From Candidatus Woesearchaeota archaeon (GTDB taxonomy: Archaea > Nanobdellota > Nanobdellia > Woesearchaeales > JAGVYU01), in the NCBI GenBank assembly GCA_043810355.1, contig JBDROB010000075.1:16565-80564 (forward strand): 64,000 nt of DNA. The letters are read 5' to 3'. The notes below the pieces were generated by a model. The model saw nothing but the letters and a program-made list of their open reading frames with translations. It searched no databases and was not told the DNA's origin. Positions 12,214-56,476 of this stretch are shown here, one piece after another (the stretch's first letter is position 1; each line of letters starts with the position of its first letter). Made by a program: the position numbers and the translations under genes.

Positions 12214-12663
12214 ATGAATCTGAATGATTTTCTTGTCAAAGCAAAACTGAATGGATATTGTAATCCAGATGTAAGGCCGCAAGAATTTGCTGATGGTAGG
12301 AGAGAATATTTATTTATAGAAGATAATATGGCCTATCATGATGCTTATCATGGTGAGAATCCTTTTCAAGGCCATGAATTGGTATGGGAAGATAATATAC
12401 CTATATGGGGTATGGTTTATAGAGGTAGAGTTATCAGTGATTCTGTCCCTCAGGATGAAATATTTGATTTTTTAAAAGTGTCCTTGAGGCATGTTGATAA
12501 GTTTTTCCCTGTTAGGGGTCCTATTAATTATTCAAGGGGAGAATTTCAGTATATCCTTGAGTCTTCAGGTGATATTGAAGAATTCAATGGTGTTGAAAGG
12601 ATCTTGCACGACAGAAAAGAAGTTTACATTCTTCGTTTTGAAGGTGGAACTATCAGATCTTAA
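12214..12663 (+). CDS. Hypothetical cytoplasmic protein (149 aa).
   Basis: ORF with non-repetitive composition. No family recognised. Confidence 0.5.
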   Translation: MNLNDFLVKAKLNGYCNPDVRPQEFADGRREYLFIEDNMAYHDAYHGENPFQGHELVWEDNIPIWGMVYRGRVISDSVPQDEIFDFLKVSLRHVDKFFPVRGPINYSRGEFQYILESSGDIEEFNGVERILHDRKEVYILRFEGGTIRS

Positions 12664-13574
12664 TGAGATTTCATGCTTAAAATGTACCCTATAATCCCAG
12701 GAATCACTGTAATCATCAAAAACCATAATATTGAGAATGAGAATCCGATTGAGGATGGCTCATTCATAATCTGGAATACAAGAACAGTGACCCATTCTCT
12801 TAATCCTAATCCTGATATTGTGATTGGTGCATTTCCCAACAATATTATTATAGGCAGGCTAAAGACTATCAGTGGATTGATATCATTCTTGAATGCAATC
12901 AGTATGAAAAATGCAGGTATAAAGCTGACAATATAATATAACAGTCCAAAAAAGAATGCTTTGAACAATGCGTTTTTGTTCTTTGCTAATCTCCTCATGT
13001 TTTCAATATAGTTTGTTTTGGATTCTTCTGAAAACTTCAGGAACCTTGCTATCAGGTTTACTATTCTTTTATTCATTATTAGGATTGTTCCAATTACCAA
13101 TATCAACCCAATTCCTAATGTAACAAAAAAGATTAGATAATTTTTGAATAAGACTAGGATAGCAATACTGCTGAGTATGATCAATGATCCAATATCAATT
13201 ATTTTCTCCCAAATGACTGTTGGAATCACTTTAGAAGCCCTTTCTTTCAGATAAAGTGCTCTGACCAATTCTCCTGATTTTCCAGGAGTCACCATTCCAT
13301 AAAAGATTCCAATTAGCAGCACTTTGATATTTTCCAATAGCTTGCATCTTATTCCAACACCTTCAAGCAATGCATTCCATTTTAATGCCCTCAATATGTA
13401 AACCATAAATATGAATGGGATTGCATAAATAACATAGATCAGATTTATCTGTGAAAAAACCTCAATTATCTTGTCAATCTTGATCTTAAACACAAGAAAC
13501 CCTAATAAGATTATAGTAATCAATGCTTTTATTATTGTGTTCCTCAGCTTTCCTTTTCTTTTTTTAAATTCCAT
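12660..13574 (-). CDS. Flippase-like membrane protein of the UPF0104 / lysyl-phosphatidylglycerol synthase TM-region family.
   Basis: 'LKWNALLEGVGI...LLIGIFYGMVTPGKSGELVRALYL' pattern. Eight hydrophobic segments. Confidence 0.55.
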   Translation of the reverse strand: MEFKKRKGKLRNTIIKALITIILLGFLVFKIKIDKIIEVFSQINLIYVIYAIPFIFMVYILRALKWNALLEGVGIRCKLLENIKVLLIGIFYGMVTPGKSGELVRALYLKERASKVIPTVIWEKIIDIGSLIILSSIAILVLFKNYLIFFVTLGIGLILVIGTILIMNKRIVNLIARFLKFSEESKTNYIENMRRLAKNKNALFKAFFFGLLYYIVSFIPAFFILIAFKNDINPLIVFSLPIIILLGNAPITISGLGLREWVTVLVFQIMNEPSSIGFSFSILWFLMITVIPGIIGYILSMKSH

Positions 13575-13610
13575 TGCTGTTATAATTTAATATTCATATA
13601 AAAACTTAAT

Positions 13611-14258
13611 CTATTTATCTGCATAAGCCCAGTTATTTAGAAACAGTTCAAAATATCCTAATCTAATTTTATCTTTTTCAAATCCAGCTAAAATTAGATA
13701 CTTTCTAATCTTCTTATGATTATAGCTTCCTTTGTGCTCTTCAATCTCCTCCTTGCTGATCAACCCTAGTCTTGCCATCACTCTTAACAATAAATCTGTC
13801 CAAGGGCAGGGAGTAGTTAGGATAAATCTTCCATTCTCTTTTAAAATCCTCTTGATCTCTTTCAAGACATTGACAATTATATCAGGCTCAATATGCTCAA
13901 ACACAGCCAGCATTGTTACAACATCAAAATGTTTTTCATGAAAAGGGATCTTAAACCCATTATCAATATTCTGTCCGATTATTTTTATATTATCCACTTT
14001 CTTTGCAGCACTGTCTATACCAATTTTCTCTTTAAATCTTGTATGTAATAAAAAATAGGGATAGCTTCCACATCCAATATCAAGTATCTTCCCTTCCCTA
14101 TGCCTTTTTGGAATGAGCTTGTTTGATATCTCTGCCCTCTTCTTAGATAGAAAATTTTCCAGTAATCCGAATCCTCTTGTGTGCTGGACCATTTTTTCAG
14201 AATAAATTTCATTCAGTGTTACTTCTTCAGCATATCTGCAAGCAATCCAAACAGCCAT
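13611..14258 (-). CDS. Class I SAM-dependent methyltransferase. The start may be the internal Met at ~14192, since 14258 overlaps the upstream GT2 by 40 nt.
   Basis: Motif I 'ILDIGCGSYPYF'. 'VVTMLAVFEHIEPD' post-I/II. Confidence 0.65.
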   Translation of the reverse strand: MAVWIACRYAEEVTLNEIYSEKMVQHTRGFGLLENFLSKKRAEISNKLIPKRHREGKILDIGCGSYPYFLLHTRFKEKIGIDSAAKKVDNIKIIGQNIDNGFKIPFHEKHFDVVTMLAVFEHIEPDIIVNVLKEIKRILKENGRFILTTPCPWTDLLLRVMARLGLISKEEIEEHKGSYNHKKIRKYLILAGFEKDKIRLGYFELFLNNWAYADK

Positions 14259-15115
14259 ATCTGAAGTCCTACTATTATGAATAATACCATTAATATTGAC
14301 ACATATGGATGCCCAACCTTTCCTGCTTCGATAAATTTGACAACAAGCCAGATTCCTAGCAATACCCCTACAAATATCATGAACATCCCGATTGTCCCAA
14401 ATATTTTCAATGGCTCATAATCCCTTATGATCCTTATTATATTCAGCCATGCTTTTGCCGCATACTCAAACGGATTGCTGATTAACCTGCTTTTTGTGCC
14501 TCCTCCTCTTTTTGCAAAATTTACAGGTATCTCTTTGATTGCAAACTTTTCTTTTGCACTTCGTATGATCTGTTCTTGAGTATATGTATGTGTTGAAGTT
14601 ATCTTGACCTTTTCAACAATATCTCTTGTAAATGCCCTAAATCCTGTCTGCCCATCTGTTATATTCAGTCTTGTTATGTTTGAGATTACTTTTGAAAATG
14701 CTTTATTACCTATTCTTTTGATAAGGGGCATGCTCTCTATTTTCCCCCTAAATCTGCTGCCAAGTACCAGGTCATACCCATTTTCAACCTCTTTGATTAA
14801 TCTTGGGATGTCTTCTGCATGATATTGTCCGTCTGCATCAGTGTGGATTATGACATCAAAATTCATTTTTAGGCATTCCTTCATCTCTGTCCTAAATGTT
14901 TCTGCTAGTCCATAATTTCTTTGATGAGATACAACAACAGCTCCTTTTTGTTCTGCAATGAATTTTGTATTATCATTGCTGCCATCATTGACAACTAATA
15001 TCTTGTATTGATAGTCAGTTTGGTCCATAACTTTCTTGATATTGTCAATGACCGGGCCTATTGTTTTCTCTTCATTATATGCAGGTATTGAGATAATAAC
15101 TCTAGTTACTTTCAT
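14219..15115 (-). CDS. GT2 glycosyltransferase, dolichyl-phosphate hexose synthase (Dpm1-like) with C-terminal TM helices.
   Basis: 'ISIPAYNEEKTIGPVIDNI...LVVNDGSNDNT...HTDADGQY' (DxD). Confidence 0.8.
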   Translation of the reverse strand: MKVTRVIISIPAYNEEKTIGPVIDNIKKVMDQTDYQYKILVVNDGSNDNTKFIAEQKGAVVVSHQRNYGLAETFRTEMKECLKMNFDVIIHTDADGQYHAEDIPRLIKEVENGYDLVLGSRFRGKIESMPLIKRIGNKAFSKVISNITRLNITDGQTGFRAFTRDIVEKVKITSTHTYTQEQIIRSAKEKFAIKEIPVNFAKRGGGTKSRLISNPFEYAAKAWLNIIRIIRDYEPLKIFGTIGMFMIFVGVLLGIWLVVKFIEAGKVGHPYVSILMVLFIIVGLQIWLFGLLADMLKK

Positions 15116-15222: not shown

Positions 15223-17061
15223 ATGTCATTTGTAACAATCATATTATTCTTCATCTACATATATGGCTTAGGTTTCTCTATAACCTATTTTTTAAAGAAC
15301 TCTGAAAATTTCTGGGAAAGGAATATTATGAGATTAGGAATTGGATTAGGGGCATTCCCATTACTAGGTGTCCTGATCAACCTTCTCAGAATACCATTGG
15401 ATTGGAAAGTATTCCTTGGAATAAGTATTATACTTCCAATTGCTTTATACTTGTGGAAAAGGAAAAATCCTGATTTCAGCTCTGCTTTCAAGATTTCAAA
15501 ATCAAATATTTATATTCTTCTTGCTTTGATCATCTTCATAATCCATCTTGTTGTCTTTGTCCAAGGCTCATATGCTTATCCTTTTCATGAGGATGATGAC
15601 TCTTGGGAGCATGCAAGGTCAATAAAATATGTTGCTGAGACAAAGACTGCTTTTGAGCCAAAAGACAATAATATTTTTCATTATATTGATTCTTACCCTC
15701 CTGGATATGATATTCTGATGGGTATGTTTGTCCAGACTAGTGGTTCAGTCTATTGGACTATGAAATTTATGAATTCTTTGATTATTTCCTTAGGAATCCT
15801 TTTCTTCTATTTCTTTGCAAAAATATTCACTAAATCAAGAAAAAAAGCATTGTATGCCACAATTGTGTTAGCCCTTATTCCTTCATTCCTAACACATTTC
15901 ATTTGGGCTTATGGAATGGCTATTATCATGATTTTTCCATTATTTTATTGTCTTGAGATGATAAATTATGATAAAAAATGGATGTATCCATCTGCAATAG
16001 TTTTTGCAGGGATGTCTGTGACACAGCCTACCTCAACATTAAAGATTGGATTGATGTATATCATATATTGGATTATCAAGGTCTGGAGAAAGCATCCAAG
16101 TGCAAAAAAGATACTTGTTGCAGGAATTTTGGCTGTGATCCTTTCAACAGCATTTTGGTGGGGTCCTATGTTTATAAAACATGGTTGGCCTGATATTTTA
16201 CATTATGGACTTGATGTGAATCAGACTGGAAGAGATCCTTCAATCCTGAAGATTCAGGGTAGTGATGATCGTATCTTTCCGCCATCTGATTTCTTTTTTG
16301 CTAAAAAGACCAATATGATCAATGCTCCAAGGGGTTGGGGAATTGCTATATCATTGATTCTTATCTTGTCTTTGATATACATAGGATTTAGAAGAAGATC
16401 ATTGTTAAAAGAGGTAAATTTGTGGCTTCTGATAACAGTTGTCTGGTTTTTTTACATGCTTATCGGCTTGGAAAGCTATGCTCTTCCTGTCCAGATGATA
16501 GCCTTTAGATACTGGGCTTTGCTGGCAATCCCAGTTGCCTTGCTCACAGCTGAAGGGATTTTCCTTATTATCTCATTGCTGAAAGGATTTAAGATACCTC
16601 CTATTGCAACATTGATAGTCTTAATTTTGCTGATATTTGCAACTGCTGGCTATCATAAATATATTCATAATACTTCACCTAATTGGCCTGCAGGAACTGG
16701 TTGGTCTTCTCCTGATGAACTCCAAGGTTATCTCAATCTAAGAGACCTTCCTTCTGGAACAAAAATATTTACATTGACTCCTGCTGGAGATGCTTGGCTT
16801 ACTGGCTATGATATGTACACTTGCGGTTGGTGCAAGGATGAGTTGGATTTCAAATCCTCTGCAGTCAACAAGTCTCCTGAAGAAATCTACAATTTCATAA
16901 AGCCAAAGGGCTATGAGTATTTTATCCTAGACACAATTACAGCTGGTTATTATGGTGCTGACCAGACTAAAATTTTGATAGAAAAAACCCTGAACTCAAC
17001 TAATTTCATACCTCAGCAAAAATTCTCCACAAATGGCATGATTTTGTTTAAATTGTCTTAA
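15223..17061 (+). CDS. GT-C fold integral-membrane glycosyltransferase (ArnT/PMT_2-like, GT39/GT83-type).
   Basis: First-loop acidic motif 'HEDDDSWEHARS'. '...YPPGYDIL...SLGILFFYFFAKIFTKSRKKALYATIVLALIPSF'. At least 11 TM segments. Confidence 0.6.
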   Translation: MSFVTIILFFIYIYGLGFSITYFLKNSENFWERNIMRLGIGLGAFPLLGVLINLLRIPLDWKVFLGISIILPIALYLWKRKNPDFSSAFKISKSNIYILLALIIFIIHLVVFVQGSYAYPFHEDDDSWEHARSIKYVAETKTAFEPKDNNIFHYIDSYPPGYDILMGMFVQTSGSVYWTMKFMNSLIISLGILFFYFFAKIFTKSRKKALYATIVLALIPSFLTHFIWAYGMAIIMIFPLFYCLEMINYDKKWMYPSAIVFAGMSVTQPTSTLKIGLMYIIYWIIKVWRKHPSAKKILVAGILAVILSTAFWWGPMFIKHGWPDILHYGLDVNQTGRDPSILKIQGSDDRIFPPSDFFFAKKTNMINAPRGWGIAISLILILSLIYIGFRRRSLLKEVNLWLLITVVWFFYMLIGLESYALPVQMIAFRYWALLAIPVALLTAEGIFLIISLLKGFKIPPIATLIVLILLIFATAGYHKYIHNTSPNWPAGTGWSSPDELQGYLNLRDLPSGTKIFTLTPAGDAWLTGYDMYTCGWCKDELDFKSSAVNKSPEEIYNFIKPKGYEYFILDTITAGYYGADQTKILIEKTLNSTNFIPQQKFSTNGMILFKLS

Positions 17062-17747
17062 TCAACAAACCTATACTTGATCAGATAAAAGAATGCCTTT
17101 ATCCCGTCTCTCCATGTTATCTTCTTTCCTTCCTTGAAATCCCTGCAGTGATAGCTTATCGGAACTTCAACAATCTTGATCCTTTTCTTCAGGACTTTTG
17201 CAGTCACTTCTGGCTCAAAATCAAAGCGCTTTGCCCTTAGCCGTATATTTTTTATCACTTCAGCCTTAAAAACCTTGTAGCATGTCTCCATATCAGTGAT
17301 CCTTCCTCCAAAAAGCAGATTTGTAATTGCAGTCAATCCTAGATTGCCGATATAATGTATCCTGTATTTTGGCACTTTCTTGAGGTTGATAAACCTTGAT
17401 CCATATACAACAGATGCTTTTCCGCTTAATATTGGTTCTAATAATTGTGGATATTCATTGATGTCATATTCTAGGTCAGCATCCTGTATCATTATGATTT
17501 CTCCAGTTGCATTTTTTATCCCAGTCCTGATTGCAGCTCCTTTCCCTTTGTTCTTCTCATGGAATATTATTTTTATCTGTTTGTCATTGATAAGATGAAG
17601 TATCTTCCTTGTTCCATCTCTGCTTCCGTCATCAACTATTATTATCTCTTTGGATATATTGCCTATTTTCACATTTTTGACTCTCTTGATTACCTCAACT
17701 AAAGTCTTCTCTTCATTATAGGTTGGAATTATTATGCTTAATTTCAT
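17058..17747 (-). CDS. GT2 glycosyltransferase (Dpm1-like, soluble form).
   Basis: 'LSIIIPTYNEEKTLVEVIKRV...IIVDDGSRDGT...QDADLEYD'. Confidence 0.8.
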   Translation of the reverse strand: MKLSIIIPTYNEEKTLVEVIKRVKNVKIGNISKEIIIVDDGSRDGTRKILHLINDKQIKIIFHEKNKGKGAAIRTGIKNATGEIIMIQDADLEYDINEYPQLLEPILSGKASVVYGSRFINLKKVPKYRIHYIGNLGLTAITNLLFGGRITDMETCYKVFKAEVIKNIRLRAKRFDFEPEVTAKVLKKRIKIVEVPISYHCRDFKEGKKITWRDGIKAFFYLIKYRFVD

Positions 17748-17760
17748 TTTTCTCTCAAGA

Positions 17761-19275
17761 TTATGTTACACACACTGCTTTTTCTTCTTCTCCCTCAAAC
17801 ACTCTGTCTGCTTCTTGCTTGTTACCTGGCTTGAAGAATGAGAACAATGCATTCACTCCACTTAATAATATTTTTATGTCATCTACTGACCTTATTTTAG
17901 CAATCTTTCTTATCACATAGCCAGGCCTAAAATAAAATTTCTTGTACATTAGTTTATAGAGATCTTTGATATCATCTGCACTTAAAGTCTCTAATCTCAT
18001 CACAGGCTTTGCTAGTGTATAGTCATCCCAGTCATATGTCAATATCAGGTCTTTATTCTTTGCCCATTCAAACATTGCTGTGCCTGGAAATGGTGTTGTT
18101 ATGTTCACAATGAGTAAATCTGGATTCAGTTTATTCACAAACTTCACATTCTTCATGATTATCTCTTTATTGTCTCCTGGATTTCCTACCATGAACGCTA
18201 GCCTTGATTCAATCCCTGCTTTTTTTGTCCATTTGTTTGCATTCAAGACCTGTTCAACATTTGTTTTTTTGTTGATGTTCCTCAGCACATTCTCATCAAT
18301 ATTCTCAACACCATACATTATCTGGTGGCATCCTGCTTTTTTCATCTTCTGCAGCATCTCAAAATCAACATAATCCACTCTGGCAAAACATGTCCATGAG
18401 ATATCAACTTTATTCTCAAGCAACATATCGCATAGTTTTATGACATTCTGCCTGTTTACAGTGAATGTGTCATCATAGAATTGTATTTGTTTTACTCCAT
18501 AATTCTTTATCAGGTATTGTATCTCTTCAAAAATCTTTTCAGCAGACTTGAAAAACATCAATGTTCCTAATGTTTTTGAGCAGAATGTGCATCTTCCTGG
18601 GCATCCTCTTGATGTCATCATGCTCATTGCAGGCAATTTCTTATAGCTTCCTTTTGCAGGCTGATATTTTAAGACTGGAAGCAGGTCATATGCAGGCATT
18701 GGCATTTCATCCAGGTTCATGATTCTTTTTCTTGGTTTTGTTCTGACAGAAAATATTTTTCCATCTTTTTTTCTCTTAAACATGATTCCATTTATCTCTT
18801 CAAGTTTTTTATTTTTTAAAATCTCAGAAAGTGTTATCTCTCCTTCTCCTATGACTGCTATATCTATATTTTTGTTCTTAATGACCTCATCTGTTAAGAA
18901 TGTTGCATGCACTCCTCCTACAACAACTTTTGCCTTTGGAAAGAATTCCTTGCATATTTCAGCCAGTTTATACACTTTTTTTATATTGCAGGTAAGTGTA
19001 GTTAAACCAATAACCCTAATATCTGAAAATCTGCTAACAAATTCTTTGATAAAAAGAGGTCTAAAGCTTTCAACAGAAGGTGCATATATGTCACAGTCTA
19101 ATATCTGGATTGAGAATCCTTGTGATCTGATAAACCCAGCAAGATCTGCTAATCCAAGTGGTGGAAAGTTTGAATTGACCTCTTTCCATATGTTTTCCTC
19201 TTCCTTGTACCAGCTTGGAGGAGCTATCAGAAGGCAATCCAGTTTCTCCTTGCTTTTTTCTTCCTTTTCCATCAT
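17761..19275 (-). CDS. B12-binding radical SAM protein (class B). Possibly a sugar or lipid C-methyltransferase or another radical tailoring enzyme.
   Basis: CxxxCxxC 'CPGRCTFCS'. N-terminal Rossmann-like B12-binding region 'LLIAPPSW...VIGLTTLT...VVVGGVHATF'. Confidence 0.8.
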   Translation of the reverse strand: MMEKEEKSKEKLDCLLIAPPSWYKEEENIWKEVNSNFPPLGLADLAGFIRSQGFSIQILDCDIYAPSVESFRPLFIKEFVSRFSDIRVIGLTTLTCNIKKVYKLAEICKEFFPKAKVVVGGVHATFLTDEVIKNKNIDIAVIGEGEITLSEILKNKKLEEINGIMFKRKKDGKIFSVRTKPRKRIMNLDEMPMPAYDLLPVLKYQPAKGSYKKLPAMSMMTSRGCPGRCTFCSKTLGTLMFFKSAEKIFEEIQYLIKNYGVKQIQFYDDTFTVNRQNVIKLCDMLLENKVDISWTCFARVDYVDFEMLQKMKKAGCHQIMYGVENIDENVLRNINKKTNVEQVLNANKWTKKAGIESRLAFMVGNPGDNKEIIMKNVKFVNKLNPDLLIVNITTPFPGTAMFEWAKNKDLILTYDWDDYTLAKPVMRLETLSADDIKDLYKLMYKKFYFRPGYVIRKIAKIRSVDDIKILLSGVNALFSFFKPGNKQEADRVFEGEEEKAVCVT

Positions 19276-19285
19276 TTTTAGAAAA

Positions 19286-47657: not shown

Positions 47658-47666
47658 TTTAACAAC

Positions 47667-49309: not shown

Positions 49310-49388
49310 TATTTAATACCTGTTCTATTGTATCCCCTTTGTTCAGACTCGGAAGTATGTCAATACCTTATTTAAGAACAAGACTTAA

Positions 49389-50836: not shown

Positions 50837-51976
50837 TCAGCTTTTCAAATTCTCAGTATGTTTCATAATATCATCAACCTTAATGTTTTTCATGCAGATA
50901 TTATTATGCCCTGATTGAAGGCATTCAGGCACTTGCCCCAGATGAACATTTATGCAAGGGCTAAACTCACAAATCTCACCTTTATACAGTCCAACACTAT
51001 CTTTCTGAAAAGGTCTCCATCTGACTGGAAGATTTGGGCCAAACAAGCCGATTGTTTTTGTTCCCATTGCAGCTCCAATATGCATTGGTCCTGAATCATT
51101 GCTAATAATTAGATCACATCTTTCTTCAAGATAAAAAAGCTGTTGCAAACTTGTTTTCCCAGCAAGATTAACAATCTTACCTTTATTCTTGACCAATCTG
51201 ATTATTTCATCATTTAACTTGATATCATCTGAGCTTCCTAACAACACAATTTTTGTATTCTTCTCATCAATAAGCCTGTCACCAAGCTCAGCAAACCTTT
51301 CCTTCATCCACATCCTTGATTTTGCTGACTCTGCAGCTCCTGCAAACAAGCCAACTAAAAAATCATTTTTAGACACTTTATTATCATTCAAAAGGCTTTC
51401 AATGTATTTTTTATCCTTGTCACCATACATCAATCTCTCCAGATTCAAAACTGTCCCTTCATATCCAATTAGTCTTATCAGGTCAAGATGAGTCTCAACT
51501 ACATGCTGTTTGTCATTATAAGAAACAGATTTTGACAGAGTCATACCTCTGATCCTGTTATCATAACCTATCCTAAACTTCCCTACAAAAAATGATATTA
51601 TTGAGGAAATATTCAGATACTCTTCAAAATCAACAACAAGCGAATATTTCCTGTAATTTTTTGATACAAAACCCAAAATAGAAAGAAAGTTAGTCTCAAT
51701 CACAATCAAATTATCAAAAAAACCTTGGCCTTCAAAAACATCCTTTGCTCTCCTTGTAGTCAATATATCAACTTCAGAATCATTATACTGCTCTCTTAAT
51801 GCCTTGATTGCAGGCAGAGTCAATATTGTCTCTCCAATCCCCCATAGTTGAATTACTAATATCCTATTAACACCCTTTAACTTTTTCCTAAAGAATATTT
51901 TGTTCAAGATTCCAAGCTTTAGGCAAACCAGTGTCCCAATATATTTGTCTAAAATCTTAATGCTTTTTACACTCAT
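50837..51976 (-). CDS. GT9-family glycosyltransferase (heptosyltransferase-like), third copy.
   Basis: 'RILVIQLWGIGETILTLPAIKALREQYNDSEVDILT'. C-terminal 'SNDSGPMHIGAAMG'. Confidence 0.7.
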   Translation of the reverse strand: MSVKSIKILDKYIGTLVCLKLGILNKIFFRKKLKGVNRILVIQLWGIGETILTLPAIKALREQYNDSEVDILTTRRAKDVFEGQGFFDNLIVIETNFLSILGFVSKNYRKYSLVVDFEEYLNISSIISFFVGKFRIGYDNRIRGMTLSKSVSYNDKQHVVETHLDLIRLIGYEGTVLNLERLMYGDKDKKYIESLLNDNKVSKNDFLVGLFAGAAESAKSRMWMKERFAELGDRLIDEKNTKIVLLGSSDDIKLNDEIIRLVKNKGKIVNLAGKTSLQQLFYLEERCDLIISNDSGPMHIGAAMGTKTIGLFGPNLPVRWRPFQKDSVGLYKGEICEFSPCINVHLGQVPECLQSGHNNICMKNIKVDDIMKHTENLKS

Positions 51977-52026: not shown

Positions 52027-52368
52027 TCATTTTTTCCCATTCTCTTCTTTGCTGATTGCAATCCTCGATACTAGATCATCTGTCTTTTTTTGCAATCTTC
52101 TGACTAATGAATATGTGTGGAAAAGTGTTCCTATTATGATGATGAATCCTAATATTATATAGAAATCAAGAGGCCTCTGCATTGTCAGCACATCTTTTAC
52201 AAAATAGTTCAATTGTGTTGGAAATAATGTGATAAAAATGAATCCTAGCCATAATATTGCCCAGACCAGACCTTCTTTTACAGTGAACTCTTTTCTTTTA
52301 TTGTGCAAGAATGTGATATAAAGCATAAACAATCCGAACAGCACTCCGATTATTTGAATTCCTAGCAT
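52027..52368 (-). CDS. Small membrane protein (DUF2304-like) paired with the adjacent GT2.
   Basis: 3 TM segments. Lies directly downstream of, and 1 nt apart from, the GT2. Confidence 0.5.
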   Translation of the reverse strand: MLGIQIIGVLFGLFMLYITFLHNKRKEFTVKEGLVWAILWLGFIFITLFPTQLNYFVKDVLTMQRPLDFYIILGFIIIIGTLFHTYSLVRRLQKKTDDLVSRIAISKEENGKK

Positions 52369-52369
52369 A

Positions 52370-53035
52370 TTACCTCCTCAATTTCCATAATATCATGTTA
52401 ATCACAATCTTGATTCCATCTATTGCAGTTGTTCCTTTGTAGATGTCTGAATAGATTGTTTGTATTGGGATTTGAGTATATCTCAGCCTTGTCTTTCCTA
52501 AATTTGCAATCATCTCTGATTCCATTGAATAGTCATTTGCATCCCATCTGATCTTTCTGTATGCATCTGCATTATATGCCCTATATCCGCTTTGTGAGTC
52601 AAATAAGTCAATATTATATAAAAACCTTGTAGCAGTATTTATAATGTTGTTTCCGATCTTCATCATCAATGGCATGTCTTTATTAAATTTTCTGAATCCA
52701 AACACAATGTCATTATTCTTTAAGGATTCTAGAAAATTTGGGATCTCTTTTGGATCATGCTGGCCGTCTGCATCAATAAGTATCATTATCTCTCCACCTT
52801 TATTTAGGACAAAGTCACATCCTGTCTTGATTGCAGCTCCTTTCCCTATGTTTATTGGGTGTCTTAGCACAATAGCCTTGTTTTCTTTGGCTATATTATT
52901 GGTTTCATCCCTGCTTCCATCATCAACAACTATAACATTGTCCAGATGTTTTTTAATATTTTTTATTACACTCCCTATATATTTCTCCTCATTATATGCT
53001 GCAATAACTGCATAAACCTTGGATTTGTCTTCCAT
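52370..53035 (-). CDS. GT2 glycosyltransferase (Dpm1-like).
   Basis: 'VYAVIAAYNEEKYIGSVIKNI...IVVDDGSRDET...IDADGQHD'. Confidence 0.8.
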   Translation of the reverse strand: MEDKSKVYAVIAAYNEEKYIGSVIKNIKKHLDNVIVVDDGSRDETNNIAKENKAIVLRHPINIGKGAAIKTGCDFVLNKGGEIMILIDADGQHDPKEIPNFLESLKNNDIVFGFRKFNKDMPLMMKIGNNIINTATRFLYNIDLFDSQSGYRAYNADAYRKIRWDANDYSMESEMIANLGKTRLRYTQIPIQTIYSDIYKGTTAIDGIKIVINMILWKLRR

Positions 53036-53176: not shown

Positions 53177-56100
53177 TTATGCTTCCGTTGTATTAAATTC
53201 TCCACCAATCATATCACTTTCATTTATCATGACATCTTCACTACTATTGATTATTTCAATCTCAATATTTTCAACATTATCAATCCTAGTTGCATTATAT
53301 TCCTCCTCACTGATTTCCTCAATTGTCACTGTTTGCTGGAAAAAAGGATAGACATTCTCCTGTTTTCCTTCCCAGTCAACTTTCCAGACAACTATCCTCT
53401 GTCCCAAGACACTGTTCTCTTCACTGAATTTTTCAAAATGTTTTGTTCCATGCCCATCTAAGAAATATAATTGAGTGAATATGCTGTCAGTCTGCTCGAC
53501 ATTTGTTATGAGCCTTGAATAACCATCCTCAGTCGGTATCATCAGGACACCAAAATCCCCTCCATTCTCATAGTCCTTGGTGATTATTCCAGTCTCATTC
53601 AGTATGACTAATCTCTTAGGTTTCTCTATGCCTTGAGCTGAACTGAATACCAATTCCATTGATGTGGAGTTAAACAGTCCGGCGCCCCCTCCAAACAATG
53701 AGCAGATATACATCCCATCTTCTCCTGGTGTGCATGGATCAATTCCAGATGCATAGCTTGGCCAAGGTGCTGTCCAGTCATTTGCATCCCTTCCAGTTCC
53801 CAATGATTGAATTTCCAAATAAATTGCTTGGGCTTCATCATCTGTCATGTTGAATTCATCTTTTAGGTATTTGACACCTTTGTCCATATCAAGATTATTA
53901 TCTTTTATTGTATTGTACATTGTTGATCTCCTGAAATTCCAGATTCCAAAATGTCCCCAAACTCCGCTTTTTCCTATCATGTCAGATGAGGTTATAAAAT
54001 ATGCTTCCGGAGGCTCACAGTGTGTATATTCCAGTACATTTTCTGCCTGTTCTTCATTAAGCCCATACCCTTTCAATATTCTTCTTGCATCTTCTTTCTC
54101 TAAAACAATTATTTCATAGATTATATCTACACTCTTGTATGTCTCATTTATTATTTTGTCAAGCTCGTCAAATGCATTGTTGCTGCCGCAGTCAAGCATT
54201 CTTAATAATCCTACACTGACATCTTCATCAGATGTAAGGAGTGAATTGCCTACCCAATGGGCCATTGGCGAGTCTTGTGATGTTCCATCAAATGTTACAG
54301 GTCTGTCAGCAATATATTTGAACCAATGCCCGAAATCCCACCATGATGTTATGATTGCATTATTCTCACTCTCAAGCCTTATCTTTTCTAATGAGCTCCA
54401 CCATGCATCTGTCATGCTTGGTATTTCTTGATATGCTGTTGATTGTCCAGCCTGCAGAGGTTTGATAAGGATTATGGATAACAGTACAATGATGACTATT
54501 TGTGTGATTAGTTTGTTGATCTTTAATTCCTTTGATATTATTTTGACAACATACTGGTATATTATTCCCAAGGCAAGTCCTACTGCAATTGAAAATGCAG
54601 GGACAAATAACAATATGAATCTTATTCCTTTTATTCCAGAATATACTGTTGCAGCAAACCAAAGAACTAGCAGGATGCTGTATTTGATATAAGTCAATCC
54701 ACCATCCTTTTCTTTGATCAAAGCGATTACTCCTTTTATAAAAACAAGCACTATTCCTAAAACACTCAGGTAAAATAAGAATGCACCTCCTATATTCCCG
54801 ATCACTTCAGGAAATGATGATTCATTCTGCTCAGCAACTGTTGTGAATACATTTGGCCAGACAGATGTTGCCCCAATTTGCTTTAATGTGACAAATCCCA
54901 TAGGTTTTTCAACTACTGTATAGAACTCATTGAATCCTAGAAACATAGTGATAAAAATGCCTGAGAATAGTATGAACATAATTATGATGATAATATTATT
55001 TTTAACAAATTTTAATTTAAATATCTGGTTGATTTTTATCCCTTTTTTATAATTTAACATTAAGTAAACTGCTAGATAGCCAACAATATATATTATTGTA
55101 GATATTATCACAAGATAGAATATATACCACCATCCTCCTGCCCATGCAAAACCAAGAAGGCCGACTAAAAAGCCTGATAAGGCAGAATATATTATTTTCT
55201 TTTTTAGATCTTTCTCTTCAAACGCAATTAAAAAGAACCATGCTATATATAATGGCAATGTCACATTGTAAGCATCTGTATCTGAAAACCCGCCCATTGT
55301 CCTGTTGATAAATGCGCTGTGGATTGCAATTAAAAATCCAGCTACAAATCCTCCATAATTCCCTGCAAGCCTTCTTGTGATAAAAAATCCAGGGATCACT
55401 GCTAAAGCACTGATAAGAATTGGTATAAGGAAAATAAAACTCATTAGATCTAGGTCTCTGTTGAAAAACTGGAATGCTTTAAATAAATAAGCAGAAAGAT
55501 AAGCATGGAACATGTCAGGTACAATAAATCTTCCTAATGGTGCAAACATGTGATTATCAAATGGCTTTCCATCCCTTAGCTCGTCTCCTGGATGCCCATT
55601 GTTAATTATATTTCTTGCATGTCTTGTCCAATAATAAGGGTCAATTGCCAATAGGTAAGTGAATTCTCCGATAACCTCTCCTTTGCTGTTTGTGATATCT
55701 CGCCTTAATCTTGATTTAAACTGGTTTGATGAAGCTGATATTGCATTATCAACTTCCTTTTTGTTTTCACTCAGGATTTTTTCAAACTCTTTCTCAATTA
55801 TTTTTGCTTTATTCTCATCAGGAAGATTTGGATATTCATTATTGACTTTATTCTCAACCTGGGCTCTTATCCCATTATATATATTGTCTCTTGCCCAAAC
55901 ATCTGTTATCGGCAATATTGCTGACTGATATCTAAGATTAGCGCTGAAATAGACACAGAACAGTAGTGAAAATATGATAAGGATTGTTGGAATGATCCAA
56001 GGTTTATTTTTTATATACCCATAACCTTTTTTTATTGATTTTGTCACATCAGAAAATTCTTCATCCTTTTCTTCATCTTTGCTTTCTTCCTTTTTGTTCC

Positions 56101-56476
56101 CCTTTTTGAAAATATTTTTTATACCGGAAAAATCAATGTTGAAATCCTCATCTTTCTCTGCCTTTTCATTATCTTCAACAAAATCTTTCTTTTCCTTGAT
56201 AATTTGCATTTTCTTCTCAGCTTCTTCAGTCTGCCTTTTCTCCTTATTGTAGCCAGGTTCTTCAGCTTTCTCACTAATATTTTCAGCCTCTAATCTCCTT
56301 AGCTCTTCTTTTTTCCTCTCTATCTCTTCATGGATATCTTTTTTATCTTTTTTCTTCTCATCCAGAGATTTATCATCATCGCTAAATGATTTACCTACTT
56401 TCTTGAAGAATCCTTTTACTTTTTTTATATCAAATGAAATCTCTTCATCATCAAAATCATCATCCAAAGACATCAC
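53177..56476 (-). CDS. aglB: Oligosaccharyltransferase AglB (STT3 family) with an unusual ~165-aa Lys/Glu/Asp-rich N-terminal cytoplasmic extension. GTG at 56476 and ATG at 56473 are both candidate starts.
   Basis: 'ITSWWDFGHWFKY' (WWDYG motif). First-loop 'LLAIDPYYWTRHARN'. 13 TM segments plus a large C-terminal domain. Confidence 0.85.
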   Translation of the reverse strand: MMSLDDDFDDEEISFDIKKVKGFFKKVGKSFSDDDKSLDEKKKDKKDIHEEIERKKEELRRLEAENISEKAEEPGYNKEKRQTEEAEKKMQIIKEKKDFVEDNEKAEKDEDFNIDFSGIKNIFKKGNKKEESKDEEKDEEFSDVTKSIKKGYGYIKNKPWIIPTILIIFSLLFCVYFSANLRYQSAILPITDVWARDNIYNGIRAQVENKVNNEYPNLPDENKAKIIEKEFEKILSENKKEVDNAISASSNQFKSRLRRDITNSKGEVIGEFTYLLAIDPYYWTRHARNIINNGHPGDELRDGKPFDNHMFAPLGRFIVPDMFHAYLSAYLFKAFQFFNRDLDLMSFIFLIPILISALAVIPGFFITRRLAGNYGGFVAGFLIAIHSAFINRTMGGFSDTDAYNVTLPLYIAWFFLIAFEEKDLKKKIIYSALSGFLVGLLGFAWAGGWWYIFYLVIISTIIYIVGYLAVYLMLNYKKGIKINQIFKLKFVKNNIIIIIMFILFSGIFITMFLGFNEFYTVVEKPMGFVTLKQIGATSVWPNVFTTVAEQNESSFPEVIGNIGGAFLFYLSVLGIVLVFIKGVIALIKEKDGGLTYIKYSILLVLWFAATVYSGIKGIRFILLFVPAFSIAVGLALGIIYQYVVKIISKELKINKLITQIVIIVLLSIILIKPLQAGQSTAYQEIPSMTDAWWSSLEKIRLESENNAIITSWWDFGHWFKYIADRPVTFDGTSQDSPMAHWVGNSLLTSDEDVSVGLLRMLDCGSNNAFDELDKIINETYKSVDIIYEIIVLEKEDARRILKGYGLNEEQAENVLEYTHCEPPEAYFITSSDMIGKSGVWGHFGIWNFRRSTMYNTIKDNNLDMDKGVKYLKDEFNMTDDEAQAIYLEIQSLGTGRDANDWTAPWPSYASGIDPCTPGEDGMYICSLFGGGAGLFNSTSMELVFSSAQGIEKPKRLVILNETGIITKDYENGGDFGVLMIPTEDGYSRLITNVEQTDSIFTQLYFLDGHGTKHFEKFSEENSVLGQRIVVWKVDWEGKQENVYPFFQQTVTIEEISEEEYNATRIDNVENIEIEIINSSEDVMINESDMIGGEFNTTEA

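What the first reader, a model, noticed from the sequence alone, without database searches (positions are those of the whole stretch)
12660..56476. About 44-kb surface-glycosylation island: AglB plus 6 GT2, at least 5 GT-C, 3 GT9, two flippase types, sugar-tailoring enzymes
The glycosylation genes run nearly continuously. Dpm1-like GT2s are at 14219, 17058, 31118, 45198 and 52370; 14219, 17058 and 31118 are interleaved with ArnT/PMT_2-like GT-C membrane proteins at 15223, 19286, 33982 and 38002, plus a YfhO-like one at 39978. There is a Wzx flippase, a MATE transporter and two UPF0104 flippase-like proteins. There are epimerases/dehydratases, SAM methyltransferases and finally AglB. The density of GT-C enzymes suggests several distinct glycan transfer reactions beyond canonical N-glycosylation, possibly O-mannosylation-like or lipid glycosylation. 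That is a very large investment for a small AT-rich archaeal genome.
Basis: partly seen in the sequence, partly recalled or inferred. Interest (0 to 1): 0.6.

Follow-up and report, generated by a model that had tools for sequence, protein, structure and literature searches.

The report
Woesearchaeal heptose-linked protein glycosylation gene island
A tiny symbiotic-type archaeon devotes about 45 kb to coating its surface with sugars, and the part of this island conserved across its relatives joins the protein-glycosylating enzyme AglB to a bacterial-style heptose-sugar pathway, which suggests what archaea use heptose for.

Summary
The window is a Candidatus Woesearchaeota (DPANN) contig. From 12660 to 56476 nearly every gene is glycan-related.

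- **Gene content:** AglB (with a WWDFG motif), five GT2 (not six), three GT9, five further GT-C membrane transferases, Wzx, MATE, two UPF0104 proteins, SDRs, methyltransferases and a B12-radical-SAM enzyme.
- **GT-C support:** two GT-Cs had no usable Pfam match. They were confirmed by AlphaFold models plus Foldseek, where the top 25-30 PDB hits are all GT-C enzymes.
an NDP-heptose operon at 46237-49877 (HldA-like kinase, GmhB, an uncharacterised GSU2086-family protein, HldC-like transferase) that would supply the GT9 heptosyltransferases.
- **Conserved core:** across species-representative Woesearchaeal genomes the order is GGR-like reductase, AglB, GT2+DUF2304, GT9, NTP-transferase, heptose operon. 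The rest of the island is variable.
- **GT2 type:** all five GT2s most resemble polyprenyl-phosphate sugar synthases and sit beside GT-Cs or UPF0104 proteins, as in the known AglD/AglR/AglS and Gtr/Gac three-component modules.

Most likely a heptose-containing dolichol-linked glycan is transferred by AglB and then decorated outside the membrane. No sedoheptulose-7-phosphate isomerase was found in the window. All chemistry is inferred.

I rate it a new variant of a known kind, of moderate interest.

The parts
12660..15115 (-). Operon of three genes: GT2 with two C-terminal TM helices (14219-15115), SAM methyltransferase (13611-14258) and a UPF0104/LPG_synthase_TM flippase-like protein (12660-13574).
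   Evidence: Pfam. The GT2's best NCBIfam hit is AglJ (166.7 bits, below the 325 cut-off). TM scan. The same UPF0104, methyltransferase and GT2 genes lie beside the 612-aa GT-C family in distant Woesearchaeota (L005, L006).
15223..17061 (+). GT-C fold glycosyltransferase of 612 aa and about 12 TM helices. It belongs to a Woesearchaeota-wide family with no Pfam model.
   Evidence: No Pfam hit. AF2 pLDDT 87.2, pTM 0.90. The top 25 Foldseek PDB hits are all GT-C (STT3, PglB, AglB, AftA, DPY19, ArnT, Pmt4; best E = 2.9e-8). An E123/D124/D126...H130 motif is invariant or nearly invariant (at least 90%) in 36 homologues.
17058..20806 (-). Operon of three genes: PMT_2-type GT-C (19286-20806), B12-binding radical-SAM enzyme (17761-19275) and a soluble GT2 (17058-17747).
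   Evidence: PMT_2 62.8 bits and PMT 39.9 bits. Radical_SAM plus B12-binding domains. GT2 129 bits. The radical-SAM protein's best hits are HpnJ and BchE, below cut-off.
20857..22269 (+). MATE/MOP-superfamily transporter.
   Evidence: MatE 217 bits, with a weak MurJ match.
22347..25848 (+). Amino-sugar cassette of four genes: NeuD/PglB-type hexapeptide acetyltransferase, DegT aminotransferase, archaeal-type UDP-GlcNAc 3-dehydrogenase-like GFO/MocA oxidoreductase, and a truncated NDP-sugar dehydrogenase (258 aa).
   Evidence: Pfam. NCBIfam: UDP-GlcNAcDh_Arch 352 bits (cut-off 450); the NDP-sugar dehydrogenase covers only profile positions 107-300 of 413. The truncated gene is the same length in the sister MAG. 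The reading as a WbpB/E/D-like route to a 2,3-diacetamido sugar is an inference.
25931..28045 (+). Two SDR nucleotide-sugar epimerases/dehydratases (25931-26899 and 27119-28045).
   Evidence: Epimerase 174 and 116 bits. No equivalog cut-off is reached.
28017..33929 (-). Operon of seven genes: two small membrane ORFs (33453-33929, 32990-33460), GT9 (31883-32935), GT2 (31118-31837), NUDIX (30537-31145), GT9 (29453-30553) and a Wzx-type flippase (28017-29447).
   Evidence: Pfam. GT9 at 29453 passes the heptosyltransferase II cut-off (145.8 against 134.6 bits). Its motif HDTGLMHIAAA is present. The NUDIX protein's best hit is the ADP-compound hydrolase NudE, below cut-off.
33982..35547 (+). GT-C (521 aa), DUF6541/PTPS_related type.
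   Evidence: DUF6541 39.4 bits (cut-off 29) and PTPS_related 30 bits (cut-off 26.4). hhalign to the 38002 family gives 95.6%, including the loop-1 D-x-x-x-H motif.
36812..37630 (+). TrmB-family sugar-responsive transcription regulator inside the island.
   Evidence: TrmB 52.4 bits. Also present in the sister MAG.
37627..44164 (-). Operon of five genes: UPF0104 protein (43154-44164), SAM methyltransferase (42308-43066), YfhO-like GT-C (39978-42311), GT-C (38002-39831) and a small 4-TM protein (37627-37992).
   Evidence: Pfam. YfhO scores 31.1 bits against a 28.5 cut-off. For 38002: AF2 pLDDT 86.1, and the top 30 Foldseek PDB hits are all GT-C. hhalign to the 15223 family gives 99.1%.
44200..45186 (+). 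SDR epimerase/dehydratase. It is not specifically HldD.
   Evidence: GDP_Man_Dehyd 214 bits. heptose_epim scores only 117 bits against a 274.6 cut-off.
45198..46127 (-). ArnC/GtrB-architecture GT2 with two C-terminal TM helices.
   Evidence: The ArnC profile is matched end to end (207 bits, cut-off 529). TM scan.
46237..49877 (-). NDP-heptose operon of five genes: a 162-aa orphan ORF (49389-49877), HldA-like heptose-7-P kinase (48311-49309), GmhB phosphatase (47667-48248), GSU2086-family protein (46761-47657) and HldC-like nucleotidyltransferase (46237-46761).
   Evidence: NCBIfam:
- rfaE_dom_I 288 bits (cut-off 345).
- GmhB 175 bits (cut-off 149.6).
- GSU2086 family 377 bits (cut-off 250).
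- rfaE_dom_II 142 bits (cut-off 181.5).

The FIEGFSTT motif is present. The operon is conserved in Woesearchaeota.
50055..50810 (+). Sugar-1-phosphate nucleotidylyltransferase with a weak N-terminal RHH match. It is part of the conserved core.
   Evidence: NTP_transferase 84.9 bits. It shows 53-62% identity in most core loci.
50837..51976 (-). Core GT9, a heptosyltransferase-like enzyme.
   Evidence: Glyco_transf_9 118 bits. Motif NDSGPMHIGAA. Orthologues at 46-50% identity lie 2-4 kb (7 kb in L018) upstream of the GSU2086 gene in 23 species-representative loci besides the sister MAG.
52027..53035 (-). GT2 (52370-53035) plus a DUF2304 small membrane partner (52027-52368). The pair resembles GacI/GacJ and PpgS/Rv3632.
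   Evidence: Pfam. PpgS is the best NCBIfam hit (129.6 bits, cut-off 370). The pair follows AglB directly in distant relatives. DUF2304 proteins stimulate the partner GT2 in bacteria (bioRxiv 10.1101/180810).
53177..56476 (-). AglB oligosaccharyltransferase (1099 aa) with a charged cytoplasmic N-terminal extension of about 150 aa.
   Evidence: STT3 151.6 bits and STT3-PglB_core 23.9 bits. WWDFG at 712-716 and DTD at 399-401.
56629..57729 (-). Geranylgeranyl-reductase-family flavoprotein, a candidate polyprenol/dolichol reductase.
   Evidence: GG-red-SF 193 bits (cut-off 158.8). It is adjacent to AglB in L003, L004 and many other loci, but absent at this position in the sister MAG. The assigned role is an inference.

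Best explanation
This is the archaeal glycosylation (agl) super-cluster of a Woesearchaeote. It has a conserved core and a variable periphery.

**Core (about 45.2-57.7 kb):**
- A bacterial-type pathway makes a nucleotide-activated D-glycero-D-manno-heptose. Its enzymes are an HldA-like kinase, GmhB phosphatase, an HldC-like nucleotidyltransferase and an uncharacterised GSU2086-family protein. The product is most likely ADP-heptose.
- A GacI/PpgS-like GT2, helped by its DUF2304 partner, charges dolichol phosphate with a first sugar.
- The core GT9 adds heptose on the cytoplasmic face.
- The lipid-linked glycan is flipped, with Wzx/MOP proteins as candidates.
- AglB transfers the glycan to Asn of surface proteins.
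- The neighbouring GGR-like flavoprotein may saturate the polyprenol carrier.

**Periphery (12.6-45 kb):**
- It supplies lineage-specific variety: two more GT9s, a 2,3-diacetamido-sugar cassette, SDRs, methyltransferases and a B12-radical-SAM enzyme.
- It also carries three to four three-component modules. In each, a GT2 makes a Dol-P-monosaccharide, a UPF0104 or MOP protein flips it, and a GT-C enzyme transfers it outside the membrane.
- The acceptor is unknown. It may be the already attached N-glycan (as with AglS), another protein site or a lipid.

**Shown:** gene identities at family or fold level, gene order, and conservation of the core across species.

**Inferred:** every substrate, the order of steps, and the link between heptose and the AglB-transferred glycan.
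For: **Family and fold assignments:**
- The three DUF6541-like GT-Cs are related to one another and share an acidic D-x-x-x-H motif in loop 1.
- All five GT2s have polyprenyl-phosphate sugar synthases as best hits (AglJ, DPhHxTase, PpgS, ArnC, PgfS). Two have the GtrB/ArnC two-TM tail.

**Conservation of the core:**
- In L003 and L004, whose GSU2086 homologues are about 60% identical, the order is GGR-like, STT3, GT2, DUF2304, GT9, NTP_transferase, [SIS or cupin], GSU2086, PfkB, HAD, CTP_transf_like, GT2.
- In a scan of one genome per species, 23 archaeal loci besides the sister MAG carry the 50837-type GT9 beside the heptose genes.
- AglB lies within 10 kb in 16 of 22 archaeal loci that have at least 8 kb of upstream flank.

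**Sequence motifs and sister genome:**
- AglB has the catalytic WWDFG motif.
- The sister MAG is colinear at 84-89% nucleotide identity.

**Precedents:**
- AglJ, AglD, AglR and AglS in Haloferax (PMC3871713).
- GacI, GacJ, GacL and GacK (bioRxiv 10.1101/180810).
- A predicted archaeal module of UPF0104, a PMT/STT3-like protein and an AglD-like GT2 (PMC5898192).
- Functional NDP-heptose enzymes in archaea whose use is unknown (PMC11461863).
- A heptose in the Thermoplasma acidophilum N-glycan (PMC11407970).
Against: - **No isomerase found.** No sedoheptulose-7-phosphate isomerase is recognisable in the window. Relatives have GmhA or a cupin at that slot. This genome and its sister have an orphan 162-aa ORF unrelated to either.
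- **Sub-threshold matches.** HldA, HldC, all five GT2s and two of the three GT9s score below NCBIfam equivalog cut-offs.
- **No known non-lipid-A acceptor.** To my knowledge GT9 enzymes are characterised only on Kdo-lipid A acceptors, and nothing shows they accept a dolichol-linked sugar.
- **No classical initiating enzyme.** No phosphosugar transferase of the WecA/AglH type is present in the island.
- **Linkage is not proof.** Adjacency to AglB does not show that the heptose glycan is the AglB substrate.
- **An unglycosylated-looking neighbour.** The only large secreted protein in the window (from 61849) has 1 sequon in 717 aa.
- **YfhO is marginal.** The YfhO assignment is barely above cut-off.
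Confidence: 0.6

Rival explanations
1. The heptose, GT9 and Wzx genes build a separate dolichol-linked polymer, glycolipid, lipoglycan or capsule-like layer. That would be an LPS-core analogue without lipid A. It would not pass through AglB, and AglB would merely be a neighbour that transfers a different, simpler glycan.
For: - To my knowledge GT9 enzymes are known from lipid-anchored LPS cores.
- Wzx and MATE transporters are typical of polysaccharide export.
- No initiating phosphosugar transferase for a Dol-PP-glycan was found.
- The nearby secreted protein is sequon-poor.
- A CPR bacterium without LPS (Liptonbacteria, L046) carries the same heptose gene set.
Against: - The order AglB, GT2/DUF2304, GT9, heptose operon is kept across many species. 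This argues for a shared pathway.
- There is no polymerase (Wzy), chain-length regulator, ligase, Lpx or Kdo gene among the ORFs scanned.
- A heptose-bearing archaeal N-glycan is already known (PMC11407970).
Confidence: 0.2
2. The five extra GT-C enzymes do not touch the N-glycan. Instead they carry out independent reactions: protein O-glycosylation (PMT-like), or glycosylation of membrane lipids or other envelope polymers (ArnT/YfhO-like). This is what the first reader proposed.
For: - 19286 matches PMT_2 and PMT, and 39978 matches YfhO.
- The GT-Cs fall into three unrelated subfamilies, which suggests different acceptors.
- The [UPF0104, GT2, GT-C] module occurs away from AglB in other Woesearchaeota.
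Against: - No acceptor information exists.
- The only characterised archaeal example of this module (AglD/AglR/AglS) finishes the N-glycan (PMC3871713).
- Structural matches are spread equally over OSTs, ArnT, Pmt and Aft enzymes, so fold does not discriminate.
Confidence: 0.3
3. The NDP-heptose is made mainly as a soluble metabolite or signal, for example in the interaction of a DPANN cell with its host, rather than as a glycan building block.
For: NDP-heptoses are potent signalling molecules in other systems, and their role in archaea is open (PMC11461863).
Against: - The operon is flanked on both sides by glycosyltransferases, including a conserved GT9 with a heptosyltransferase-type nucleotide-sugar motif.
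- No export or sensing genes specific to a soluble signal are present.
Confidence: 0.05
4. The bacterial-looking genes (GT9, heptose pathway) reflect a chimeric or contaminated MAG contig rather than an archaeal locus.
For: - GSU2086, GmhA and GT9 are typically bacterial.
- The segment from 57.9 to 64 kb has higher GC and a bacterial-style TAT/lipobox protein.
Against: - GC is uniform (0.31-0.36) from 12 to 58 kb.
- Archaeal RNase P RNA, NAC, the ribosomal-protein/RpoD operon and AglB are on the same contig.
- The same arrangement occurs in dozens of independently assembled Woesearchaeal MAGs.
Confidence: 0.02

Closest known systems
Haloferax volcanii agl cluster, with AglJ/G/I/E, AglB and the AglD/AglR/AglS outer-face step
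   Same: - It is a clustered archaeal N-glycosylation locus containing AglB.
- GT2 enzymes charge dolichol phosphate.
- It has a MOP/Wzx-type flippase candidate.
- A GT-C enzyme adds sugar from a Dol-P-monosaccharide outside the membrane.
- Nucleotide-sugar and methyltransferase accessory genes are present (PMC3871713).
   Different: - Here there are five GT-Cs besides AglB, whereas the pentasaccharide pathway uses one (AglS).
- There are no GT4-type soluble GTs. The soluble elongating GTs are GT9.
- A complete-looking NDP-heptose operon is embedded.
- UPF0104 proteins are separate genes rather than fused as in AglD.
Bacterial three-component glycan modification systems (GtrA/B/C; GacI/J/K/L; CsbB/GtcA/YfhO; ArnC/ArnT; PpgS/Rv3632/Rv3779)
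   Same: - A GT2 polyprenyl-P-sugar synthase, some with a two-TM tail and one with a DUF2304 activator-like partner.
- A flippase candidate.
- A GT-C transferase encoded side by side (the other systems are from own knowledge).
   Different: - The carrier would be dolichol, not undecaprenol.
- No GtrA-family small flippase was detected. UPF0104 proteins occupy that position.
- The acceptors are unknown and cannot be teichoic acid, O-antigen or lipid A.
Gram-negative LPS inner-core heptose system (GmhA, HldE or HldA/HldC, GmhB, HldD, WaaC/WaaF/WaaQ)
   Same: - An HldA-like PfkB kinase.
- GmhB, above cut-off.
- An HldC-like nucleotidyltransferase with the FxxGxSTT motif.
- Three GT9s, one above the heptosyltransferase II cut-off.
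- The GSU2086-family gene, which lies between hldE and gmhA in Geobacter.
   Different: - No lipid A, Kdo or WaaA genes in the window.
- No GmhA and no clear HldD in the window.
- The host is an archaeon without an outer membrane.
- The genes are linked to AglB.
Predicted archaeal module arCOG00899 (UPF0104) + arCOG00563 (PMT/STT3-like) + arCOG00897 (AglD-like GT2), Makarova et al. 2015
   Same: The same three protein types are in the same neighbourhood, and the same predicted flippase role is given to UPF0104 (PMC5898192).
   Different: - The module was described from cultured archaea.
- Here it occurs in several diverged copies within a single DPANN island.
- The GT-C families here have no Pfam model.

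Membership tests
AglB/STT3 oligosaccharyltransferase | STT3 multi-TM N-terminal domain plus the STT3/PglB/AglB core domain | tested here: met
   PF02516 151.6 bits (cut-off 24.5) and PF21436 23.9 bits (cut-off 23). The NCBIfam archaeo_STT3 subfamily scores only 73.6 bits against 450, so it is not that particular subfamily.
AglB/STT3 oligosaccharyltransferase | WWDYG catalytic motif in the C-terminal domain and acidic residues in the external loops | tested here: met
   WWDFG at 712-716. DTD at 399-401. D289 in 'AIDPYYW' follows the first TM segment. The assignment of these acidic residues to loops is by eye only.
AglB/STT3 oligosaccharyltransferase | Transfer of a lipid-linked glycan to Asn in N-x-S/T | not testable with these tools
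   Requires biochemistry or glycoproteomics.
GT-C fold glycosyltransferases (15223, 19286, 33982, 38002, 39978) | Polytopic membrane protein (at least 8-13 TM helices) with the GT-C architecture of solved enzymes | tested here: met
   All five have 10-12 predicted TM helices. For 15223 and 38002, confident AF2 models have only GT-C enzymes as top hits (TM-scores 0.45-0.56, so the match is at fold level only). 33982 is linked to 38002 by hhalign at 95.6%.
GT-C fold glycosyltransferases (15223, 19286, 33982, 38002, 39978) | Match to a curated GT-C sequence family above threshold | tested here: inconclusive
   Met for 19286 (PMT_2), 33982 (DUF6541, PTPS_related) and, marginally, 39978 (YfhO, 31.1 against 28.5 bits). 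Not met for 15223 (no hit) or 38002 (DUF6541 19.3 bits against a 29 cut-off). That these Pfam families belong to the GT-C clan is from own knowledge. dbCAN/CAZy HMMs were not available.
GT-C fold glycosyltransferases (15223, 19286, 33982, 38002, 39978) | Conserved acidic catalytic residue in the first extracytoplasmic loop | tested here: met
   Conserved D-x-x-x-H after the core TM1 in all three DUF6541-like proteins: D126/H130 in the 15223 family, D44/H48 in the 38002 family, and 'VDASSH' in 33982. This was not examined for 19286 or 39978.
GT9 (heptosyltransferase family) | Glyco_transf_9 domain | tested here: met
   133, 57.5 and 118 bits against a cut-off of 22.
GT9 (heptosyltransferase family) | Equivalence to LPS heptosyltransferase I, II or III | tested here: inconclusive
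   29453 passes the heptsyl_trn_II cut-off (145.8 against 134.6 bits). 50837 (100 bits) and 31883 (63 bits) do not. The D[ST]GxxH[IL] motif is present in 29453 and 50837 but absent in 31883; the significance of that motif is from own knowledge.
GT9 (heptosyltransferase family) | Kdo-lipid A type acceptor and an LPS context | tested here: not met
   No Lpx, Kds or WaaA family appears among the scanned window ORFs of 100 aa or more. The host is an archaeon. These proteins should therefore not be filed as LPS core enzymes.
ADP-L/D-glycero-D-manno-heptose pathway | GmhA sedoheptulose-7-P isomerase | tested here: not met
   No SIS-domain protein is in the window. The 162-aa ORF is unrelated to GmhA or to the cupin of relatives. 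The enzyme may lie elsewhere in the genome.
ADP-L/D-glycero-D-manno-heptose pathway | Heptose-7-P kinase and heptose-1-P nucleotidyltransferase (HldA/HldC or HldE) | tested here: inconclusive
   Best hits by a wide margin are rfaE_dom_I (288 bits, cut-off 345) and rfaE_dom_II (142 bits, cut-off 181.5). FIEGFSTT matches the (F/L)xxGxSTT motif (PMC11461863). Nucleotide specificity is not determinable.
ADP-L/D-glycero-D-manno-heptose pathway | GmhB heptose-1,7-bisphosphate phosphatase | tested here: met
   TIGR00213 175 bits against a cut-off of 149.6.
ADP-L/D-glycero-D-manno-heptose pathway | HldD 6-epimerase | tested here: not met
   None of the three SDRs approaches the heptose_epim cut-off: 117, 89 and 48 bits against 274.6. 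A D,D-heptose product is therefore more likely.
Three-component polyprenyl-P-sugar modification system (Gtr/Gac/AglD-R-S type) | GT2 that makes a polyprenyl-monophosphate sugar | tested here: inconclusive
   All five GT2s have such enzymes as top NCBIfam hits, but all score below equivalog cut-offs. Two have the two-TM tail and one has a DUF2304 partner.
Three-component polyprenyl-P-sugar modification system (Gtr/Gac/AglD-R-S type) | Adjacent flippase candidate and GT-C transferase | tested here: met
   The sets are 12660/14219/15223; 17058/19286 (with 20857 nearby); and 43154/39978/38002 with 45198. The first set recurs in L005 and L006. Flippase activity of UPF0104 on Dol-P-sugars is only predicted (PMC5898192).

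The most novel reading that the evidence does not exclude
A large clade of Woesearchaeota (DPANN) builds heptose-based N-linked glycans.

- A bacterial-type NDP-heptose pathway and a GT9 heptosyltransferase have been recruited to act on a dolichol-linked acceptor that AglB then transfers to protein.
- This would be the first GT9 with a non-lipid-A acceptor.
- It would be the first genetic basis for heptose in archaeal glycoproteins.
- It would answer what archaea use NDP-heptose for.
- The universally co-located GSU2086-family protein would be an unrecognised fifth enzyme of heptose metabolism.
- A cupin would replace GmhA in some lineages.
Probability: 0.4. Interest if true: 0.65.

Novelty: new variant of a known kind. 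Interest (0 to 1): 0.5.

Why it matters
- **DPANN surface chemistry is unknown.** DPANN archaea live attached to other cells, so their surface glycans are probably central to host recognition. No DPANN glycan structure or pathway is known.
- **A concrete, testable prediction.** This locus predicts heptose-containing, AglB-transferred glycans that are further decorated outside the membrane by several GT-C enzymes.
- **A link to an open question.** Functional NDP-heptose enzymes have been reported in archaea with no known purpose.
- **Three well-defined unknowns for biochemistry.**
  - The GSU2086 family, which lies in heptose operons of both bacteria and archaea.
  - A cupin that replaces GmhA in some lineages.
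  - A Woesearchaeota-wide GT-C family with no Pfam model.
- **Limits.** Clustered agl islands and three-component GT-C modules are established concepts, and nothing here is shown experimentally.

Tried and rejected
- **Sixth GT2.** All ORFs of 100 aa or more in the island were scanned and only five GT2s exist.
- **PDB sequence searches for the unassigned GT-Cs.** Searches for 15223 and 33982 found nothing useful. Fold comparison was needed instead.
- **The 162-aa ORF as a hidden isomerase.** BLASTP and hhalign against the GmhA and cupin proteins of relatives, plus PDB, Pfam and NCBIfam, were all negative.
- **GtrA-like identity of the small membrane ORFs.** Pfam at E up to 10 gave no credible hit for 32990, 33453, 35471 or 37627.
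- **Structure or function of GSU2086.** PDB searches with the sequence and with a 25-member profile gave only insignificant deoxyhypusine-synthase-like hits.
- **Mobile-element or tRNA boundaries.** There are no tRNAs. The only Rfam hit is archaeal RNase P RNA, outside the island. GC is flat across the island, so recent acquisition of the whole island is unlikely.
- **Literature on heptose or GT9 in Woesearchaeota/DPANN.** Nothing relevant was found. The primary paper by Tang et al. (2024) is not held, so my reading of the 'STTR5' position rests on a commentary and is left open.
- **LPS-like interpretation.** Rejected, because no Lpx, Kdo or WaaA genes are present.
- **Contamination or chimera.** Rejected, because the locus recurs in many independent MAGs.
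- **Middle of the sister MAG's island.** The region matching window 25.9-36.8 kb could not be fetched, so strain-level variability there is untested.

Full report
**Source and context**

The window is archaeal and AT-rich (GC about 0.31-0.36 up to 58 kb). Several archaeal markers lie on it:
- Archaeal RNase P RNA at 4136-4481.
- A NAC protein.
- The S13-S4-S11-RpoD-L18e-L13-S9 block at 7.9-11.7 kb.
- GyrA.

The 609-aa protein at 38002 is 100% identical to a protein of a 'Candidatus Woesearchaeota archaeon' MAG. A sister MAG (GCA_043805595.1) is colinear at 84-89% nucleotide identity over window 7771-25858 and 36783-56620. The organism is therefore a DPANN archaeon of the Woesearchaeota, and the island is not an assembly artefact.

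**Checking the observation**

I translated every ORF of 100 aa or more between 12.2 and 61.8 kb and scanned them against Pfam and, selectively, NCBIfam.

- AglB at 53177-56476 (STT3 151.6 bits; WWDFG at residues 712-716).
- GT2 at 14219, 17058, 31118, 45198 and 52370.
- GT9 at 29453, 31883 and 50837.
- Wzx at 28017 and MATE at 20857.
- UPF0104/LPG_synthase_TM at 12660 and 43154.
- SDRs at 25931, 27119 and 44200.
- Methyltransferases at 13611 and 42308.

There are five GT2s, not six.

Paralogues are old. GT2s are 26-33% identical to each other, GT9s 24-27% and SDRs 28-31%. The density is therefore not due to recent duplication.

**The GT-C question**

Sequence evidence:
- 19286 matches PMT_2.
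- 33982 matches DUF6541 and PTPS_related above threshold.
- 39978 matches YfhO just above threshold.
- 15223 has no Pfam hit.
- 38002 has only a sub-threshold DUF6541 hit.

Fold evidence for the two unassigned proteins:
- I collected homologues for both. Both belong to Woesearchaeota-wide families at 30-45% identity.
- I modelled them with AlphaFold2 (pLDDT 87.2 and 86.1; pTM 0.90 and 0.86) and searched the PDB with Foldseek.
- The top 25-30 hits are exclusively GT-C enzymes: STT3, PglB, AglB, AftA, AftD, DPY19, ArnT, Pmt4 and ALG9/12 (best E = 3e-8 and 1e-7; TM-scores about 0.45-0.56).

Relationships among the GT-Cs:
- Profile-profile comparison joins 15223, 38002 and 33982 into one distant subfamily (99.1% and 95.6%).
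- They share a conserved D-x-x-x-H in the first external loop and a similar C-terminal extracytoplasmic domain.
- The YfhO-like protein is unrelated to them.

The island therefore encodes five GT-C enzymes of three types, plus AglB. CAZy family assignment could not be done because dbCAN was not available.

The stretch 46237-49877 (- strand) is an NDP-heptose operon:
- An HldA-like PfkB kinase (rfaE_dom_I, 288 bits).
- GmhB (175 bits, above cut-off).
- A GSU2086-family protein (377 bits, above cut-off).
- An HldC-like nucleotidyltransferase (rfaE_dom_II, 142 bits) carrying FIEGFSTT, the (F/L)xxGxSTT motif.

In Geobacter, GSU2086 lies between hldE and gmhA and shares their mutant phenotype (PMC5585712). 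This operon explains the three GT9 heptosyltransferase-family genes.

Other unreported items:
- An acetyltransferase, aminotransferase and UDP-GlcNAc-3-dehydrogenase-like cassette at 22347-25025, with a truncated NDP-sugar dehydrogenase next to it.
- A B12-radical-SAM enzyme (17761).
- A NudE-like NUDIX protein between a GT9 and a GT2 (30537).
- A TrmB regulator (36812).
- A DUF2304 protein paired with GT2 52370.
- A geranylgeranyl-reductase-family gene next to AglB (56629-57729).

**Conservation**

Neighbourhoods of GSU2086 homologues at about 60% identity in two distant Woesearchaeota (L003, L004) show this order: GGR-like, STT3, GT2, DUF2304, GT9, (methyltransferase), NTP_transferase, [SIS GmhA or cupin], GSU2086, PfkB, HAD, CTP_transf_like, GT2.

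A scan of one genome per species returned 80 loci:
- About 43 are from Woesearchaeota/Nanoarchaeota MAGs.
- One is from a CPR bacterium.
- 36 are from diverse bacteria.

tblastn with the window's proteins gave these results:
- The 50837-type GT9 (46-50% identity) lies beside the heptose genes in 23 archaeal species besides the sister MAG.
- The GT2 (53-59%), DUF2304 and NTP-transferase (53-62%) travel with it in most of these loci.
- AglB lies within 10 kb in 16 of 22 archaeal loci with enough upstream flank. This is a lower bound.
- The other two GT9s are not part of this core.
- In most of the bacterial loci GSU2086 sits next to GmhA.

The core of the island is therefore a lineage-wide unit linking AglB to heptose, and 12.6-45 kb is the variable part.

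Within the variable part, the set [UPF0104, methyltransferase, two-TM GT2, 612-aa GT-C] recurs in distant relatives.

**Mechanism (inferred)**

All five GT2s have polyprenyl-phosphate sugar synthases as best NCBIfam hits (AglJ, haloarchaeal dolichyl-phosphate hexose transferase, PpgS, ArnC, PgfS). None reaches an equivalog cut-off. Two have the GtrB/ArnC two-TM tail. One has a DUF2304 partner, as in GacI/GacJ and PpgS/Rv3632, where the small protein stimulates the synthase.

With UPF0104 proteins and GT-Cs beside them, this reproduces two known patterns:
- The predicted archaeal module of Makarova et al. (PMC5898192).
- The characterised AglD/AglR/AglS step of Haloferax, where a Dol-P-mannose is flipped and its mannose is added to the already Asn-linked glycan (PMC3871713).

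My best model runs as follows:
1. A Dol-P-linked sugar made by GT2 52370 plus DUF2304 is extended with heptose by the core GT9, and in this lineage by two more GT9s and unusual amino sugars.
2. The lipid-linked glycan is flipped.
3. AglB transfers it to protein.
4. Three to four GT2/flippase/GT-C modules add further sugars outside the membrane.
5. The GGR-like enzyme may saturate the carrier.

Heptose in an archaeal N-glycan has a chemical precedent in Thermoplasma acidophilum (PMC11407970). Functional NDP-heptose enzymes in archaea have been reported with unknown purpose (PMC11461863).

**Weak points**

- No S7P isomerase is recognisable in the window. Relatives carry GmhA or, alternatively, a cupin at that slot.
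- This genome and its sister carry an orphan 162-aa ORF unrelated to either.
- No SDR qualifies as HldD, so a D,D-heptose is more likely.
- Several assignments are sub-threshold.
- No GT9 is known to use a dolichol-linked acceptor.
- No WecA/AglH-type initiating enzyme is present.
- Gene linkage does not prove that AglB transfers the heptose glycan.

The main rivals are a separate heptose-containing glycolipid or polymer, and GT-Cs acting on non-N-glycan acceptors. Neither can be excluded. The second is not exclusive of the main model.

**Comparison and novelty**

Agl clusters, three-component GT-C modules and archaeal NDP-heptose enzymes are each known. I could not find the following described:
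- The conserved physical coupling of AglB, a GT2/DUF2304 pair, a GT9 and a heptose operon in a DPANN clade.
- The concentration of five extra GT-Cs of three types in one island.

I therefore rate it a new variant of a known kind, of moderate interest. All functional statements remain predictions.

Noticed in passing
window 46761-47657 (-); loci L007-L086: The GSU2086-family protein is highly conserved. Mean column identity is 77% among Woesearchaeota, and the window protein is 42-47% identical to bacterial homologues. It is embedded in heptose operons in both domains: next to GmhA in most of the bacterial loci, and between gmhA/cupin and hldA in archaea. It has no known function and only insignificant deoxyhypusine-synthase/ArgZ-Rossmann similarity. 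It may be an unrecognised heptose-pathway enzyme.
   Followed up: partly
L023, L030-L035, L038, L041 (slot just upstream of the GSU2086 homologue); compare L004 9436-9999: In Woesearchaeal heptose operons the position held by GmhA (SIS domain) in most species is held by a cupin_2 protein of about 135-148 aa in others; L035 has both. This suggests a non-orthologous sedoheptulose-7-P isomerase.
   Followed up: partly
window 49389-49877 (-): An orphan 162-aa ORF heads the heptose operon in this genome and its sister only (82% identity). It is unrelated to GmhA or the cupin and has no Pfam, NCBIfam or PDB match.
   Followed up: yes
window 25072-25848 (+): The NDP-sugar dehydrogenase is truncated to 258 aa (profile positions 107-300 of 413; the C-terminal domain is missing). 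The length is identical in the sister MAG. It is either a conserved short form or a shared pseudogene.
   Followed up: partly
window 57946-64000: Right of the island the GC content rises to 0.37-0.41, and synteny with the sister MAG ends at 56620. The segment contains an 814-aa ORF with no hit anywhere and a 458-aa ORF with a bacterial-style TAT signal plus lipobox ('RRGFLAAAATALAGC'). It may be a foreign segment.
   Followed up: partly
window 61849-64000 (+), runs off the end: A large secreted protein with a signal peptide and repeated 'VTVTPVNDAP..SGLPD' cadherin/VCBS-like units. It has only 1 N-x-S/T sequon in 717 aa, although N is 8.2% and S+T is 18.6% (about 10 expected). That is striking next to an N-glycosylation island.
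   Followed up: no
window 53177-56476 (-), residues 1-150 of AglB: AglB has a K/E/D-rich, low-complexity cytoplasmic N-terminal extension of about 150 aa before its first TM helix. The sister's AglB is a similar size (1106 aa), and distant relatives are 1021-1028 aa.
   Followed up: no
window 50055-50810 (+): The core sugar-1-P nucleotidylyltransferase has about 57 extra N-terminal residues with a weak ribbon-helix-helix (CopG) match. It is divergently transcribed from the heptose operon and may have a regulatory role.
   Followed up: no
window 4136-4481 (+): Archaeal RNase P RNA (Rfam RF00373, 118 bits).
   Followed up: yes
L046 (Candidatus Liptonbacteria, CPR): A CPR bacterium, which should lack LPS, carries GmhA, GSU2086, HldA, GmhB and HldC. 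Its GSU2086 homologue is 49% identical to the window's. This hints at shared heptose use among ultra-small episymbionts.
   Followed up: no
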